This document shows, piece after piece, positions 38,030-43,102 of a stretch of 64,000 nt of DNA. Numbering within the stretch: the stretch's first letter is position 1; each line of letters opens with the position of its first letter. Source of the DNA: an uncultured Bacilli bacterium (GTDB taxonomy: Bacteria > Bacillota_I > Bacilli_A > RF39 > UBA660); contig CAKOLB010000001.1 of NCBI GenBank assembly GCA_934096125.1, forward strand, positions 75,487-139,486, written 5' to 3'. The position numbers were made by a program, and so were the translations under genes. A model generated the notes under the pieces. That model was not told the DNA's origin, did no database searches, and saw only the letters and a program-made list of their open reading frames with translations.

Positions 38030-38083
38030 ACAAAAAACAAATAAATTGTTAAAATTAACTAGTAACGAAAAGGAGTGATAAAA

Positions 38084-38260
38084 ATGGCTACAAAAGTAAC
38101 TTTGAAAAAACCACTATCTGGTAATAAAAGATCACATTCTATGCGAGCTACTAAAACAAAGCAAAAACCAAATTTACAAACATTAACTATTAACGGTGAA
38201 AAAGTTAGAATTAGTACAAGAGAAGCTAGAACTATTAATAAGAAAAATAAAGCTGCATAA
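38084..38260 (+). CDS. rpmB: 50S ribosomal protein L28
   Basis: MATKVTLKKPLSGNKRSHSMRATKTKQKPNLQ... matches the L28 pattern. ATG at 38084 follows a GGAG RBS, whereas the track start at 38075 lacks one. Confidence 0.9.
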   Translation: MATKVTLKKPLSGNKRSHSMRATKTKQKPNLQTLTINGEKVRISTREARTINKKNKAA

Positions 38261-38415
38261 GTTAAAGGCAGTTTTATTTTTTTGTTTTAATACTCTTCTG
38301 CAAAGTGGCTCTACTCTTTTGGTACATGAACATCACTTAAGTTCTCATAAATATTATACAACTTAATATTATACTTTTTAGCATCCTCGCAAGTTAAATC
38401 TTTAAAAGCAGGACT

Positions 38416-38445
38416 ATGTTAATTTGAAGTGCAACACTTCAAATT
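38416..38445. repeat. inverted-repeat motif (AATTTGAAGTG-CAA-CACTTCAAATT), copy 1 of a dispersed element end
   Basis: 11-bp perfect arms. The motif plus its left flank ATGTTAATTT recur at 58807-58838. Both copies sit next to pseudogene debris. Confidence 0.6.
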
Positions 38446-38468: not shown

Positions 38469-38620
38469 TTGACAATAATAATAATTCATACTACTATTAG
38501 CATGTAAGCAAGAAAACTTACATAAAATAAAAAAAGAGGAACACTTAATCTTGCAAGTGAATGTCACCTCTAGTTTAAAGACTTGACACTCTATAGATGC
38601 TGAAGAGTGTCCATTTTTTT
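38469..38620 (+). ncRNA. candidate antisense sRNA (type I antitoxin-like) with own promoter and terminator
   Basis: Promoter TTGACA-17-TACTAT (38469-38497). Internal hairpins ATGTAAG..CTTACAT and GAGG..CACTT/AAGTG..CCTC. Intrinsic terminator GACACTCT-11 nt-AGAGTGTC plus T7 (38585-38620). No RBS or ORF. The transcript is antisense to the 3' end of the 42-aa ORF. Confidence 0.4.
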
Positions 38621-38703
38621 ATTGCTAACCCCCGTAAGGTAGAAAGTAACAAAATGATAGCAATGAGCTTTAGAACTTTTATAATAAAAGTCTTAGTTTT
38701 CAT
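38575..38703 (-). CDS. small hydrophobic peptide (42 aa), type I toxin-like, absent from the ORF track
   Basis: AGGAGGTG sits 8 nt before ATG 38703. Sequence MKTKTFIIKVLKLIAIILLLSTLRGLAIKKWTLFSIYRVSSL*. An upstream CCUCC can pair with the SD. A minus-strand terminator hairpin plus U7 lies at 38529-38570. Confidence 0.45.
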   Translation of the reverse strand: MKTKTFIIKVLKLIAIILLLSTLRGLAIKKWTLFSIYRVSSL

Positions 38704-38768
38704 CTTTATCCACCTCCTTTCCTTCTCAAGATTGGAGGACGAGGCTCACATCAAATATTCCTGTCAAA

Positions 38769-38797
38769 ATTATATAATAAGGAAATTTATAAAACAA
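38769..38797 (-). promoter_or_regulatory. promoter for the small hydrophobic peptide mRNA
   Basis: Minus strand TTGTTT-17 nt-TATAAT, giving a 5' UTR of about 60 nt. Confidence 0.4.
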
Positions 38798-39754: not shown

Positions 39755-40225
39755 TTACTTCCTAAATTCATGTAATAATCTTTCTTTAATAACATCAACA
39801 TCAACAAAAAATAAATCAACCCCTCTATTTTTAAGGCCAATCATATTTCTAAACAAAAAATTAATTTCCATTATCAGATCACTTTGTACATATACAGGAA
39901 CTCCATTAATGGTATGAACATGATCAATATATTTTTCTAAAATTGGAAAAGCATTCTGAAGTAGTATAGCCGAATCTTTACCAGCTACTTTTCTAATAAG
40001 AATTGTATTACAAAAACCATATCGTTTAATTTTATTATTAATTATTTTTTTATATTTTTCAACTTTCGAACTGATTGGAATAAACCACAAGAATTCCTTA
40101 TCTTTGAGAGTAAAATATGTTGGTCTCTTTCGGCCTTTCTCATGGTTACACATTAACTTTTCATCGTTCATAATGGAAAAAAATTCATCCTTAATATGAT
40201 ATAAACATCCAACTTTAATTTTCAT
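39755..40225 (-). CDS. type III toxin-antitoxin system toxin candidate (ToxN/AbiQ/CptN-like endoribonuclease)
   Basis: 156 aa. GGGAGG-N7-ATG at 40225 (the track TTG at 40240 is less likely). It is preceded by tandem RNA repeats and a terminator, the type III TA grammar. The RKRPTYFTL..FLWFIPISSKVEKYKK segment is reminiscent of the AbiQ/ToxN RPY...APLSSPK region. Confidence 0.6.
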   Translation of the reverse strand: MKIKVGCLYHIKDEFFSIMNDEKLMCNHEKGRKRPTYFTLKDKEFLWFIPISSKVEKYKKIINNKIKRYGFCNTILIRKVAGKDSAILLQNAFPILEKYIDHVHTINGVPVYVQSDLIMEINFLFRNMIGLKNRGVDLFFVDVDVIKERLLHEFRK

Positions 40226-40256
40226 TATAGTTCCTCCCAAAACATAATATCATAAA

Positions 40257-40483: not shown

Positions 40484-43102
40484 TTAATTCTTGTTTTTAA
40501 TTGCCGATTTAGCGGCAGCCAAAATTGCCACAGGAACTCTAAACGGAGAGCAAGAAACATAATCTAAACCAATCTTATCACAAAATTCGATACTCTTAGG
40601 ATCTCCACCATGTTCACCACAAATTCCTAAACTAATATTCGGCTTAACCATTCTTCCTTTATTTACTCCCATTTGAATTAAAGCCCCTACTCCAGCTTCA
40701 TCAATGCTTGCAAAAGGATCAGATTTAAATATATTCTTTTCATAATAATCCTTTAAGAATTTTCCAGCATCATCTCTACTAAAACCATAAGTAAGCTGTG
40801 TTAAATCATTACTTCCAAAACTAAAGAAGTCTGCTTCATTTGCAAGTTTATCAGCCAGAAGTGCTGCTCTTGGAAGTTCAATCATAGTACCAATTTTATA
40901 TTTGATATCTACTCCAGCTTTCTCTATTATTGAGCTTGCCGTCTTAACAACTATACCTTTTACATATTTAAGCTCTTCTTCATCTCCTACTAAAGGTATC
41001 ATTATCTCAGGCTCTACTAAAACGCCTTTTTGATAAACATTAACGGCCGCTTCTATCAAAGCTCTTGTTTGCATTTCTGCAATTTCCGGATAAGTAATAG
41101 CAAGACGGCAACCTCTATGTCCCATCATAGGATTAAATTCTTTTAATGAAGAAATTATTTCTTCAAGCTCTTCCACTGTTTTTCCAAGACTACTTGCAAG
41201 TTCTGCCACTTCTTCTTTGGTCTTCGGTAAAAACTCATGAAGTGGTGGGTCTAAATAACGAACAACAACTTTATTTGGACTCATCACTGTAAATAGTCCT
41301 TCAAAATCTTCTCTTTGATATGGCAAAATTTCTTCTAAAGCTTTTTCTCTTTCTTCTTTAGTACTTGCACATATCATCTTCCGAAAACTAAATATTCTTT
41401 TTTTATCAAAGAACATATGTTCACTTCGGCATAATCCAATTCCTTCTGCTCCAAAATTTTTTGCCATATTAGCATCTTTAACTGTATCAGCGTTAGCTAG
41501 CACTCCTAGTCTTTTAATTTCCTTTGCCCAAGACATAAACTTTTCAAAGTCTCCACTAATAGAGGCATCAACTAGTTCTATTTTCTTCGCATAGACATTT
41601 CCTGTAGAACCATCAACAGATATATAATCACCTTCATGCAACACTTTTCCATTTTCATTTTTCAAACATCTATTTACTTCATCAACAACTATATTAGCTC
41701 CACTAACGCAAGGAATTCCCATACCTCTTGCAACCACTGCGGCATGACTAGTCATTCCTCCCCGAACTGTTAAAACTCCTTCACTTGAGTGCATACCTTC
41801 GATATCTTCAGGAGAAGTTTCAGTTCTAACTAATATAGAAGGAATATTTTCTCTTTTATTTTCAATCAGTTTTTTGGCATCAAAACATATCACTCCAACC
41901 CCAGCTCCTGGAGAAGCCGCCAGACCACTTGCAAATACTTCTTCATTTTGGAGTTGCATTATATTAAACGTCGGATGAAGAAGGGCATCTAAACTATTTT
42001 CATCCACTCTAAATAAAGCTTCTTCTTTAGTAATAATCCCCTCTTCGACTAAAGATACAGCTATCTTAATTGCTGCCGCAGGCGTTCTCTTACCATTTCT
42101 TGTTTGCAGTATATAAAGCTTTCCATCTTCAATTGTAAACTCCATATCTTGCATATCTTTATAATGTTTTTCAAGCTTCTCAGCAATCATTGCAAACTCT
42201 TCATAAATTTCAGCATTAACTTCTTTTAACTTTTCAATACTCTCAGGTGTTCGAACTCCTGCAACAACATCTTCCCCTTGGGCATTCATCAAATATTCGC
42301 CAAAAAGTTTCTCTTCACCTGTCGCCGGATTTCTTGTGAAAGCTACTCCAGTTCCAGAATTTTCATTTAAGTTACCATAAACCATTTGTTGCACATTAAC
42401 CGCTGTTCCCCAATCATTTGGAATATTATTAATCTTACGATAATATATTGCTCTTTCATTATTCCAACTTTTAAAGACCGCTTTGATCGCTTCAAATAAT
42501 TGCACGTATGGCTCCGATGGAAAATCTTTTCCCTCAAACTCCGTAAACTTTTGTTTAAACATTTCCACAATTTTCTTCATGTCTACTTCATCAAGCTCAT
42601 TATCAAGTTTAACATTTTTTTCAGCTTTTATATCATCAATTATTTTTTCGAACTCACAACGATTATATCCCATTACAACATCTGCATACATTTCAATAAG
42701 TCTTCGATATGAGTCATACATAAATCTTTTATTACCAATTTTTTCGCCATAAACCTCAACTATTTTTTCATTAAGGCCTAGATTAAGAATACTATCCATC
42801 ATCCCCGGCATACTTATTCTCGCCCCACTTCGAACACTTAAAAGAAGGGGATTATTTATATCTCCAAACTTTTTGCCAGTCTTACTTTCAATTATCTCAA
42901 CGGCATTTCTAATTTCTTTTTCAATATTTTCCGAAAGCATCTCTTGATTATTATAATAAAAAGTGCAAGCATCTGTGGAAACGGTAAAACCACTAGGCAC
43001 CGGAAGACCAATTCTCATCATTTCCGCTAAGTTAGCACCTTTACCTCCAAGAATTTCTCTCATATCCTTATTACCTTCATCAAACAAATAAACGTATTTC
43101 AC
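40484..43102 (-). CDS. ppdK: pyruvate, phosphate dikinase
   Basis: 872 aa. ATP-grasp N-terminus, phosphohistidine swivel motif GGMTSHAAVVARG, and a PEP-utilising C-terminal TIM barrel (GSNDLTQ). Confidence 0.97.
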   Translation of the reverse strand: MKYVYLFDEGNKDMREILGGKGANLAEMMRIGLPVPSGFTVSTDACTFYYNNQEMLSENIEKEIRNAVEIIESKTGKKFGDINNPLLLSVRSGARISMPGMMDSILNLGLNEKIVEVYGEKIGNKRFMYDSYRRLIEMYADVVMGYNRCEFEKIIDDIKAEKNVKLDNELDEVDMKKIVEMFKQKFTEFEGKDFPSEPYVQLFEAIKAVFKSWNNERAIYYRKINNIPNDWGTAVNVQQMVYGNLNENSGTGVAFTRNPATGEEKLFGEYLMNAQGEDVVAGVRTPESIEKLKEVNAEIYEEFAMIAEKLEKHYKDMQDMEFTIEDGKLYILQTRNGKRTPAAAIKIAVSLVEEGIITKEEALFRVDENSLDALLHPTFNIMQLQNEEVFASGLAASPGAGVGVICFDAKKLIENKRENIPSILVRTETSPEDIEGMHSSEGVLTVRGGMTSHAAVVARGMGIPCVSGANIVVDEVNRCLKNENGKVLHEGDYISVDGSTGNVYAKKIELVDASISGDFEKFMSWAKEIKRLGVLANADTVKDANMAKNFGAEGIGLCRSEHMFFDKKRIFSFRKMICASTKEEREKALEEILPYQREDFEGLFTVMSPNKVVVRYLDPPLHEFLPKTKEEVAELASSLGKTVEELEEIISSLKEFNPMMGHRGCRLAITYPEIAEMQTRALIEAAVNVYQKGVLVEPEIMIPLVGDEEELKYVKGIVVKTASSIIEKAGVDIKYKIGTMIELPRAALLADKLANEADFFSFGSNDLTQLTYGFSRDDAGKFLKDYYEKNIFKSDPFASIDEAGVGALIQMGVNKGRMVKPNISLGICGEHGGDPKSIEFCDKIGLDYVSCSPFRVPVAILAAAKSAIKNKN

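What the first reader, a model, noticed from the sequence alone, without database searches (positions are those of the whole stretch)
38469..38797. Unannotated type I TA-like pair: 42-aa hydrophobic peptide with sequestered SD, and a convergent antisense sRNA
The minus strand carries a promoter (TTGTTT-17-TATAAT) and a 5' UTR of about 60 nt in which CCUCC (38738-38734) can pair with the very strong SD AGGAGGUG. Next comes a 42-aa ORF (MKTKTFIIKVLKLIAIILLLSTLRGLAIKKWTLFSIYRVSSL) with one hydrophobic helix and basic residues. A terminator hairpin plus U7 (38570-38529) follows. The plus strand carries a convergent unit with no ORF: promoter TTGACA-17-TACTAT and terminator GACACTCT..AGAGTGTC-T7. 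This unit would be fully complementary to the 3' end of the peptide mRNA, with about 46 nt of coding overlap plus the 3' UTR. The layout matches 3'-overlapping type I TA modules of Firmicutes (txpA/ratA, bsrG/SR4 style). The peptide is below the ORF-track size cutoff. The track instead lists a spurious 70-aa plus-strand ORF here.
Basis: partly seen in the sequence, partly recalled or inferred. Interest (0 to 1): 0.65.

Follow-up and report, generated by a model that had tools for sequence, protein, structure and literature searches.

The report
Mutated type I toxin-antitoxin cassette
This 330-bp stretch is a small membrane-peptide gene faced by a convergent antisense RNA gene. It is one mutated copy of an undescribed but abundant type I toxin-antitoxin-like cassette family of uncultured small-genome gut Bacilli.

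Summary
The type I toxin-antitoxin reading holds up well in comparative analysis.

- **Spread.** The cassette recurs in more than 120 contigs of uncultured gut Bacilli/"Tenericutes" MAGs. It is found in 54 of 101 genera of the window's family, with up to 14 copies per ~1.2-Mb genome. None was found in other families of the class.
- **Typical peptide.** Related copies encode 24-33-aa hydrophobic peptides. The window's subfamily reads MKTKTFIVKVLKLIAIILLLSTLLVLAIKK.
- **Covariation across 46 diverse copies.** It supports a ~20-25-bp helix joining the 5' end of the peptide mRNA to its 3' UTR (GU:AC = 98:11, so sense-strand RNA). It also supports a hairpin at the ORF end that folds on the opposite strand (44:12), which is the antisense terminator.
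- **Toxin-antitoxin linkage.** Near-full toxin halves almost always carry the antisense module (109 of 114). The five exceptions are four disrupted ORFs and one diverged module below the threshold. Antisense modules without a toxin half are common (48 of 156).
- **Known families.** No Pfam, NCBIfam or Rfam family matches.
- **The window's copy.** It is the only copy in its genome and looks attenuated. Three point mutations (L24R, V25G, stop31W) break the hydrophobic helix and produce the 42-aa length.
- **Not shown.** Transcription and toxicity are untested.

The parts
38769..38797 (-). Promoter of the peptide (toxin) mRNA: TTGTTT, 17 nt, TATAAT. The likely start is G38761/G38760.
   Evidence: Read from the sequence. 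The -10 box and the transcript start (A)GG(G)AAYAT align across homologues.
38741..38761 (-). 5' arm of the long-range 5'-3' helix (GGAAUAUUUGAUGUGAGCCUC). It pairs with 38570-38537. In this copy the helix is weakened by two adjacent mismatches.
   Evidence: The window MFE pairs 15 of the first 30 nt with the 3' region, against 23 in sibling L076.
38711..38738 (-). SD-sequestering hairpin: anti-SD CCUCC (38738-38734), inner stem and loop, SD AGGAGGUG (38718-38711).
   Evidence: The SD has a predicted pairing probability of 0.99 in the window and a mean of 0.82 over 46 copies. The same hairpin type is found in L045, L076, L088, L098, L139 and L153.
38575..38703 (-). Peptide ORF, 42 aa here. The canonical 30-aa toxin would end at codon 31 (38613-38611, TGG in place of TAG). 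Substitutions: 38633 T>G (L24R), 38630 T>G (V25G), 38612 A>G (stop31W), given on the minus strand.
38585..38620 (+). Intrinsic terminator of the antisense RNA: stem 38585-38592 with 38604-38611, then U7 at 38614-38620. The U-run is the complement of the Lys-Lys codons.
   Evidence: Folding gives -12.1 kcal/mol, z = -4.1. Helix 5 has 9 of 10 pairs with compensatory changes. AC:GU = 44:12 in the sense reading, so it folds on the antisense strand.
38529..38570 (-). Toxin mRNA terminator hairpin plus U7. It is also the 3' arm of the long-range helix and the core target of the antisense RNA.
38469..38497 (+). Promoter of the antisense RNA: TTGACA, 17 nt, TACTAT. The family consensus is TTGTCA/TTGACA, 17 nt, TGnTATTAT. 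The window has lost the TG extension.
38499..38625 (+). Antisense (antitoxin) RNA of about 117-120 nt (about 38502-38620): 5' hairpin 38502-38523, A-rich linker, middle hairpin (the complement of the toxin terminator), then its own terminator.
   Evidence: The covariance model R1 matches exactly here (69.7 bits, E 5.5e-8) and nowhere else in the genome. The 5' hairpin folds at -5.6 kcal/mol, z = -7.6. The alignment is A2.

Best explanation
The locus is one copy of a type I toxin-antitoxin-like cassette.

**Components.** The minus strand gives a ~235-nt mRNA for a small membrane peptide, canonically 30 aa with a basic N-terminus, one hydrophobic helix and a KK tail. The plus strand gives a ~120-nt cis-antisense RNA. 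It starts about 30 nt beyond the toxin's terminator, reads back through that terminator and stops at its own terminator at the end of the ORF. It is therefore perfectly complementary to the last ~90 nt of the toxin mRNA.

**Shown by covariation.** The extreme 5' end of the toxin mRNA pairs with its 3' UTR or terminator region, closing the molecule. The hairpin at the ORF end folds on the antisense strand.

**Predicted.** The SD lies in a local hairpin.

**Inferred mechanism.**
1. The closed mRNA is stable and poorly translated.
2. The antisense RNA contacts it through complementary hairpin loops and zips into a long duplex over the 3' UTR.
3. This displaces the 5' arm. The duplex is cut by RNase III and the freed 5' end is attacked by RNase J, so no peptide is made while the cassette is present.

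**The window's copy.** The toxin is probably attenuated or dead. L24R and V25G interrupt the hydrophobic helix, and the stop codon is lost (42 aa). The 5'-3' helix and the antisense -10 box are also degraded. I read the copy as a decaying relic.
For: **Family and spread.**
- Homologous cassettes occur in 26 of 61 related genomes, several of them multi-copy.
- The motif is in more than 120 contigs of uncultured gut Bacilli/Tenericutes MAGs.
- The antisense model R1 hits 54 of 101 genera of the family, with up to 14 copies per genome. In a class-wide sample it hit only genomes of this family.

**Peptides.**
- At least six subfamilies of 24-33-aa hydrophobic peptides follow strong SDs.
- Second codon positions vary least (7-10 variable sites, against 16-23 at positions 1 and 3).

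**RNA structure.**
- In 46 of 46 mRNAs the MFE pairs the 5' 30 nt with the 3' region. In the control this happened in 21% of cases.
- RNAalifold retains only this helix, and 17 of its 19 pairs are compensatory.
- 89% of cells are paired, against 28-46% when the partner columns are slid. There are 237 double-change cells against 26-64. None of 500 shuffles reached the observed values.
- Strand test: the long-range helix has GU 98 against AC 11, and the ORF-end hairpin has AC 44 against GU 12.
- The antisense promoter is conserved with an extended -10 box.

**TA signature.**
- 109 of 114 toxin halves have the antisense module. Of the 5 exceptions, 4 are disrupted ORFs and 1 has a diverged module below the threshold.
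- 48 of 156 antisense modules lack a toxin half.

**Nucleases and the window copy.**
- RNase III and two RNase J genes are present in the genome.
- The window copy differs from sibling L076 in the ORF by three point changes. No other subfamily member seen has R/G at positions 24/25. It has the lowest R1 score among the matches listed.
Against: - There is no expression data.
- Toxicity and neutralisation are untested.
- On the window alone the signals are weak. The toxin terminator has z = -1.3 and the 5' UTR fold z = -0.3. The strict terminator scan found nothing.
- The loci used for the orphan-toxin count were largely fetched through an antisense-side motif, which biases that count.
- Whether the 42-aa mutant is inactive is an inference from the sequence alone.
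- How the 5'-3' helix and terminator formation coexist during transcription is unknown.
Confidence: 0.78

Rival explanations
1. The cassette encodes a harmless small membrane protein, for example a regulator or a subunit-like peptide. Its level is tuned by a cis-antisense RNA, with no toxin-antitoxin relationship.
For: Nothing here measures toxicity. Many small hydrophobic proteins of Gram-positive bacteria are not toxins. The peptide matches no toxin family.
Against: - There are up to 14 diverged copies per ~1.2-Mb reduced genome, some in tandem arrays.
- The copies sit at no fixed genomic position.
- Translation is silenced in layers: closure of the 5' and 3' ends plus an SD hairpin.
- No near-full toxin half with an intact ORF lacked the antisense module, while orphan antisense modules are common.
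- ORF-inactivating lesions recur.

These are hallmarks of selfish or toxic modules rather than of a housekeeping peptide.
Confidence: 0.13
2. The repeat is a miniature mobile element (MITE-like). Its terminal inverted repeats give the apparent 5'-3' complementarity, and the ORF and promoters are incidental.
For: The element is multi-copy, about 330 bp long and intergenic. It is enriched near tRNA genes (37% of copies lie within 500 nt, against 10% of random positions). Its ends are complementary and co-vary.
Against: - Mismatches in the end helix are strongly strand-asymmetric (GU 98 against AC 11). This is expected for RNA pairing and not for DNA inverted repeats.
- The complementary arms lie inside the predicted transcript, not at the edges of the conserved block. 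The conserved block extends through both promoters.
- The ORF keeps its frame, start codon and SD, and shows a coding-type substitution pattern.
- A second hairpin shows the opposite strand bias.
- There were no hits in the phage, plasmid or viral-contig collections.
Confidence: 0.04
3. The window copy is still a fully functional toxin-antitoxin pair. The 42-aa variant with R24/G25 would then be an active, diverged toxin rather than a decaying one.
For: The promoter, SD, start codon, both terminators and the antisense -35 box are intact. R1 still matches at E 5.5e-8. C-terminally extended variants recur in the family.
Against: - The uninterrupted hydrophobic stretch after K12 falls from 16 residues (LIAIILLLSTLLVLAI) to 11 (LIAIILLLSTL).
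- No other subfamily member seen has a charged residue at position 24. One has Q there.
- Mutagenesis of the unrelated toxin Fst showed that the hydrophobicity of the transmembrane segment is essential (PMC7472228).
- The long-range helix pairs 15 nt against 23 in the sibling.
- The antisense -10 box has lost its TG extension.
Confidence: 0.3

Closest known systems
bsrG/SR4 of Bacillus subtilis (Jahn & Brantl 2013, PMC3834814), and by my own knowledge txpA/RatA, bsrE/SR5 and yonT/SR6 (yonT/SR6: PMC5848175)
   Same: - The toxin and antitoxin genes are convergent.
- A ~100-180-nt antisense RNA overlaps the 3' end of the mRNA of a small hydrophobic peptide.
- The SD lies in a double-stranded region of the toxin mRNA.
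- Each RNA has its own terminator, and the complementary hairpin loops are suited to a first contact. In SR4/bsrG the first contact is between the terminator loop and loop 3.
- The expected outcome is mRNA decay, with an indirect effect on the 5' UTR fold.
   Different: - There is no sequence similarity of the peptide or the RNA.
- The cassette is not on a prophage in the window, and no phage hits were found.
- The toxin mRNA is closed by a covarying 5'-3' helix whose 3' arm is the antitoxin's target. To my knowledge this has not been described for the Bacillus systems.
- The peptide is shorter (30 aa, against 38 for BsrG and 59 for TxpA, from memory).
par (fst/RNA II) of Enterococcus faecalis pAD1 and the Fst/Ldr family (PMC7472228)
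   Same: - The promoters are convergent.
- The toxin mRNA is ~230 nt and the peptide ~30 aa.
- An intramolecular helix sequesters the extreme 5' end, and a stem-loop sequesters the SD.
- Copies occur on chromosomes of low-GC Gram-positive bacteria.
   Different: - The peptide lacks the Fst signature: no conserved Trp between the transmembrane segment and a charged tail, and no PXXXG motif.
- The antisense RNA does not share a bidirectional terminator. It reads through the toxin terminator and has its own.
- No second complementarity region was found at the translation start.
- The partner of the 5' end is the 3' UTR, not a nearby upstream-helix segment.
hok/sok (E. coli) and aapA/IsoA (Helicobacter pylori; PMC6733600)
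   Same: [quoted passage not shown] The SD is masked by CU-rich anti-SD elements. The chromosomal families are multi-copy.
   Different: - In those systems the antisense RNA overlaps the 5' part or the translation start, and a 3' trimming step activates the mRNA.
- Here the antisense RNA overlaps the 3' end, including the 3' arm of the interaction.
- The SD is masked by a local hairpin rather than by the 3' end.
- There is no sequence similarity, and the phylum is different.

Membership tests
Type I toxin-antitoxin systems (general kind) | Small (<60 aa) hydrophobic, membrane-type peptide gene with its own promoter and a strong RBS | tested here: met
   The family norm is 30 aa and the window's copy is 42 aa. 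There is one hydrophobic segment and the SD is GGAGG. The substitution pattern is coding-type.
Type I toxin-antitoxin systems (general kind) | Cis- or trans-encoded antisense RNA with its own promoter and terminator, complementary to the toxin mRNA | tested here: met
   The antisense promoter is conserved. The covarying terminator hairpin has a strand bias pointing to the antisense strand. The covariance model has three hairpins. The evidence is comparative only, with no transcript data.
Type I toxin-antitoxin systems (general kind) | The peptide is toxic when overexpressed and the RNA neutralises it | not testable with these tools
   Only indirect evidence is available. No near-full toxin half with an intact ORF lacks the antisense module: of the 5 halves out of 114 without one, 4 are disrupted and 1 has a weak module. 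Orphan antisense modules are common.
bsrG/SR4, txpA/RatA group (3'-overlapping type I TA of Bacillus) | Convergent arrangement in which the antisense RNA overlaps the 3' end of the toxin mRNA | tested here: met
   The predicted overlap is about 88 nt (38533-38620).
bsrG/SR4, txpA/RatA group (3'-overlapping type I TA of Bacillus) | Sequence homology of the toxin or the antitoxin RNA to the described members | tested here: not met
   No Pfam or NCBIfam family matched 11 peptides at E<=1-10. No Rfam family matched the window locus or 7 related loci.
Fst/Ldr (par) family | [quoted passage not shown] | tested here: not met
   Canonical peptides such as MKTKTFIVKVLKLIAIILLLSTLLVLAIKK have no Trp, no Pro/Gly motif and only a KK tail. 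There is no Pfam Fst hit.
Fst/Ldr (par) family | Shared bidirectional terminator, plus direct repeats giving a second complementarity region at the translation start | tested here: not met
   The antisense RNA has a separate terminator at the ORF end. Duplex prediction between the antisense 5' domain and the toxin 5' region is no better than for shuffled sequences (mean z = -0.26).
hok/sok and aapA/IsoA type | 5'-3' long-distance interaction in the full-length toxin mRNA | tested here: met
hok/sok and aapA/IsoA type | Antisense RNA overlapping the 5' region or translation start; activation by 3' processing | tested here: not met
   The antisense unit lies at the 3' end. Processing cannot be tested here.

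The most novel reading that the evidence does not exclude
The antitoxin and the 5' end of the toxin mRNA compete for the same 3' segment, so the cassette works as a three-state RNA switch. In the closed state the 5'-3' helix keeps the mRNA stable, silent and partly shielded from the antitoxin. Antitoxin invasion through the loop of the ORF-end hairpin displaces the 5' arm and hands the mRNA to RNase III and RNase J. Loss of the antitoxin, plus an opening event, permits translation. In some subfamilies a LexA-type box (GAAC-N4-GTTY) over the toxin promoter would add SOS control. This would be a regulatory logic not described for 3'-overlapping type I systems. It would also make the family the main addiction or stress module of a large uncultured gut lineage.
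Probability: 0.3. Interest if true: 0.65.

Novelty: new member of a known kind. Interest (0 to 1): 0.48.

Why it matters

This cassette family matches no Pfam, NCBIfam or Rfam family in the copies searched, and a full-text search for type I TA together with RF39 found no paper. It is nevertheless among the most repeated non-coding or small-gene elements in the ~1-Mb genomes of a large family of uncultured gut Bacilli found in humans, mice, rabbits, chickens and ruminants.

The many diverged copies give an unusually clean covariation record of a toxin mRNA closed by 5'-3' pairing and of its antisense partner. That makes the regulatory design testable without a cultured host. It also supplies markers (model R1 and the peptide subfamilies) for annotating these MAGs.

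The window's own copy matters less. It shows how such a module decays: point mutations in the transmembrane helix, loss of the stop codon and erosion of the RNA helices.

Tried and rejected
- **Known families.** Rfam at a permissive threshold was searched on the window locus and on seven related loci. It gave only a sub-threshold ohsC-like hit on the rpmB terminator (26.6 bits against a cut-off of 50) and tRNAs. Pfam and NCBIfam searches on 11 peptides gave nothing meaningful.
- **Paralogues in the own genome.** There are none by DNA, peptide or covariance model.
- **Mobile-element collections.** The exact motif gave no hits in IMG/VR viral contigs, and blastn gave none in the plasmid or phage collections.
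- **Synteny.** The window's neighbours (rpmB, the 213-aa membrane protein, orf130, the ToxN-like ORF, ppdK, dnaE) do not flank other copies. One copy lies near an rpmB gene in a different arrangement.
- **A par-like or SprA1AS-like second pairing site.** I tested pairing between the very conserved antisense 5' domain and the toxin RBS. It is not supported overall (mean z = -0.26). Only the MKKKDLL subfamily reaches z of -2 to -3.6.
- **MITE reading.** Rejected on the GU/AC strand asymmetry and the coding pattern.
- **Plus-strand 70-aa ORF.** Rejected as a gene. Its ATG sits in the loop of the antisense terminator and has no SD. Its counterparts in other copies vary from 30 to 58 aa.
- **Order-level scan.** The scan with R1 failed twice for technical reasons, so the family-level and class-level samples were used instead.
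- **Literature.** No paper links type I TA systems with RF39 or Mollicutes, and the T1TAdb paper does not mention these taxa.

Full report
**1. What is in the window**

The region lies in a 2.2-kb accessory gap between rpmB (38075-38260, +) and ppdK (40484-43102, -). The genome is ~1.0 Mb with ~29% G+C.

On the minus strand:
- TTGTTT (38797-38792), 17 nt, TATAAT (38774-38769).
- A ~58-nt leader that starts at about G38761.
- CCUCC (38738-38734) facing the SD AGGAGGUG (38718-38711).
- ATG at 38703 and a 42-codon ORF ending at 38575.
- An imperfect hairpin (38570-38536) followed by U7.

On the plus strand:
- TTGACA (38469-38474), 17 nt, TACTAT (38492-38497).
- A small 5' hairpin (38502-38523; -5.6 kcal/mol, z = -7.6).
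- The complement of the toxin terminator.
- A clean terminator (38585-38611 plus U7; -12.1 kcal/mol, z = -4.1).

Taken alone, several signals are weak:
- The strict terminator scan found nothing.
- Promoter-like matches number 18 against 12 expected.
- The toxin terminator alone has z = -1.3, and the leader alone z = -0.3.

The case therefore rests on comparison with other copies.

**2. The locus belongs to a large family**

The window copy is unique in its own genome by DNA, by peptide and by covariance model. The evidence for a wider family is as follows.
- 26 of 61 related genomes have matches, mostly in the same genus, and several have 4-8 copies.
- A 28-nt motif spans the toxin U-run and the antisense 5' hairpin. 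It occurs in more than 120 contigs of uncultured "Bacilli/Tenericutes/Mollicutes" gut MAGs from rabbit, mouse, chicken (Candidatus Ventrenecus), goat and human.
- The motif occurs in no viral contig, and blastn found no match in the plasmid or phage collections.
- I built a covariance model of the antisense RNA (R1; 124 positions, 3 hairpins). It finds the cassette in 54 of 101 genera of the window's family, with up to 14 copies per ~1.2-Mb genome.
- In a class-wide sample of 101 genomes, R1 hit only the three genomes of this family.
- Copies are often tandem. L111 has three copies 475 bp apart.
- 37% of copies lie within 500 nt of a tRNA gene, against 10% of random positions in the same loci.
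- Positions are not syntenic with the window.

**3. The peptide**

Among 113 unique copies, 75 have an SD-preceded ORF of 18-60 aa. Almost all of these are 24-33 aa and fall into at least six subfamilies. Examples are:
- MKTKTFIIKVLKLIAIILFLLIIMIVVIKK
- MKTKTFIVKVLKLIAIILLLSTLLVLAIKK
- MNKKDFLILSLIILIFLLVLLLFIVLI
- MKKKDLLISFLILIIILLIVSLMILCIKK
- MRKSEKTLMNIIILLIIVILVILIKIVPTV

Within subfamilies the second codon position varies least: 7-10 variable sites, against 16-23 at positions 1 and 3. This is the pattern expected for a translated hydrophobic segment.

The protein database holds 13 unnamed homologues of the window's subfamily. No Pfam or NCBIfam family matches.

**4. RNA structure shown by covariation**

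I used 46 non-redundant predicted mRNAs, each running from the start site to the U-run.
- In 46 of 46, the MFE structure pairs the first 30 nt with the last 75 nt (mean 24.7 nt paired). When the 5' 30 nt are shuffled, the mean is 5.2, and 21% of shuffles reach 10 or more.
- On the MAFFT alignment A1, RNAalifold keeps only this long-range helix. It has 19 pairs, 17 of them with compensatory double changes. For example, column pair 31/258 is UA in 24 sequences and CG in 17.

I then scored this helix together with the ORF-end hairpin.

| Measure | Observed | Partner columns slid |
|---|---|---|
| Cells paired | 89% | 28-46% |
| Double-change cells | 237 | 26-64 |
| Covariation score | 0.527 | 0.09-0.135 |

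None of 500 shuffles reached the observed values.

A strand test settles which strand folds.
- In the long-range helix, G-U pairs read on the sense strand outnumber A-C by 98 to 11. This helix therefore forms in the toxin mRNA.
- In the ORF-end hairpin the bias is reversed: A-C 44, G-U 12. That hairpin therefore forms in an RNA made from the opposite strand. The complement of the Lys-Lys codons follows it there as a U-run.

This is the best available evidence that the antisense transcript exists.

The antisense promoter is also conserved. Its form is TTGTCA/TTGACA, 17 nt, TGnTATTAT, and 40 of 113 copies read exactly TGTTATTAT.

The SD is predicted to be paired with mean probability 0.82, against 0.65 for the whole mRNA. 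In the window the value is 0.99. The anti-SD partner differs between subfamilies.

**5. Toxin-antitoxin signature**

I searched the fetched loci separately with profiles of the toxin half and of the antisense half.
- 109 of 114 near-full toxin halves have an antisense module downstream.
- Of the five exceptions, one has a diverged module just below the threshold. The other four have disrupted ORFs: a 3' replacement in L073, L024 and L010, and a frameshift plus truncated module in L015.
- Conversely, 48 of 156 antisense modules lack a toxin half.

A caveat applies. Many of these loci were fetched through an antisense-side motif, so the second number is inflated. The first result is less affected.

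The genome encodes RNase III and two RNase J paralogues.

**6. The window's copy is a mutated member**

The closest full copy is L076. Against it, the ORF differs by three point changes on the minus strand:
- 38633 T>G (CTG to CGG, L24R).
- 38630 T>G (GTG to GGG, V25G).
- 38612 A>G (TAG to TGG, stop31W).

The 42-aa length and the 46-nt coding overlap both follow from the lost stop codon.

Other signs of decay:
- The uncharged hydrophobic run after K12 shrinks from 16 residues to 11.
- No other member of the subfamily seen here has R/G at these positions.
- The 5' arm of the long-range helix carries two adjacent mismatches (GUGUCG to GCCUCG). It pairs 15 nt, against 23 in the sibling.
- The antisense -10 box has lost its TG extension.
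- The R1 score of 69.7 bits is the lowest among the matches listed.
- The nearest relative in the same genus, L009 in G015 (80% identity), is a 5'-truncated remnant beside a tRNA gene.

I read the window copy as a decaying relic. This is an inference.

**7. Mechanism**

Shown here:
- The architecture.
- Closure of the toxin mRNA by its 5' and 3' ends.
- An antisense-strand terminator.
- Linkage of the two halves.

Predicted by folding:
- Masking of the SD by a local hairpin.

Inferred, by analogy with bsrG/SR4 (PMC3834814) and with hok and aapA (PMC6733600):
1. The closed mRNA is stable and silent.
2. The antisense RNA starts pairing at complementary hairpin loops.
3. It forms a ~90-bp duplex and displaces the 5' arm.
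4. RNase III and RNase J then degrade the mRNA.

**8. Comparison with known systems**

In layout the cassette is closest to the 3'-overlapping Bacillus systems. In mRNA folding it resembles par (5' end and SD both sequestered; PMC7472228) and hok/aapA (long-distance interaction).

It is a member of none of them.
- It has no sequence similarity to any of them.
- It lacks the Fst signature.
- It has no shared bidirectional terminator.
- It has no second pairing site at the RBS.
- Its antisense RNA lies at the 3' end rather than the 5' end.

It is therefore a new family of a known kind.

Earlier notes of this scan on other genomes (e1-3771356, e1-1370304) reached the same reading. They are not independent evidence.

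**9. Verdict**

The finding is a new member of a known kind and of moderate interest. The family is the interesting part. The window's copy is a degraded example.

Noticed in passing
related loci, e.g. L046:~3000, L118, L163, L148, L160 (toxin promoters); own genome C2:~57520 (upstream of lexA): 18 of 76 toxin promoters carry a LexA/Cheo-box-like GAAC-N4-GTTY that overlaps the -35 box or abuts the extended -10 box. The background rate is 0.004 per 70 nt. lexA is present in the window's genome and in nearly all of its genus. Its own promoter has AAACATTTGTTTG. Some subfamilies may therefore be SOS-controlled. The window's promoter has GTTC-GCTT-GTTT at that place, which is not a match.
   Followed up: partly
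window 38614-38620 and homologues P0001-P0005: The A7 run that encodes Lys-Lys just before the stop codon is also the U-run of the antisense terminator. Several database homologues have C-terminal extensions of 4-40 aa that begin at this run, through a frameshift or a lost stop. The homopolymer may be a mutational hot spot that alters the toxin tail.
   Followed up: partly
window 38502-38530 and all related copies: The first ~30 nt of the antisense RNA (AUGUCAAGGAAACUUGCAUAAAAUAAAAA) are almost invariant across peptide subfamilies whose other parts have diverged. This stretch lies beyond the toxin's U-run. It does not detectably pair with the toxin RBS. The reason for its conservation is unexplained.
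   Followed up: partly
window 38421-38445: A perfect 11-bp hairpin with a 3-nt loop (AATTTGAAGTG CAA CACTTCAAATT) lies 23 nt upstream of the antisense -35 box, with no clear U-run. Many related copies have a different hairpin (ACTCGAAAAGTTCGAGT) at the equivalent place, next to a tRNA gene.
   Followed up: no
window 38244-38397, minus strand: A promoter-like site (TTAACT, 18 nt, TATAAT, 38397-38368) faces the rpmB terminator. Rfam gives a sub-threshold ohsC-like match at 38244-38314 (26.6 bits against a cut-off of 50, E 0.59). This may be a further short antisense or sRNA unit, or chance.
   Followed up: no
window 39755-40240, minus strand: A 161-aa ORF has a weak, sub-threshold ToxN_toxin match (PF13958, E 0.015, 15.9 bits against a cut-off of 25). 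Earlier first-reader notes describe 49-nt repeats upstream of it, which would be type III TA-like. The gap between rpmB and ppdK may hold two TA-like modules.
   Followed up: partly
related loci L044-L163: Cassettes are enriched next to tRNA genes: 48 of 130 lie within 500 nt, against 10% of random positions. They often form tandem arrays of 2-3 copies 360-590 bp apart. The window copy has no tRNA gene within 8 kb.
   Followed up: partly
L061:7564-7613, minus strand: A match above threshold to the Rfam family ssNA-helicase RNA (RF03070, 48 bits against a cut-off of 41.5) lies in a related MAG contig. It is unrelated to the cassette.
   Followed up: no
L076 (CAVDCT010000003.1) and L048 (CAZJKO010000006.1): Two contigs that carry typical cassettes are labelled Roseburia sp. 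and uncultured Muribaculaceae in their records. Given the family-restricted distribution, these are more likely binning or labelling errors than transfers.
   Followed up: no
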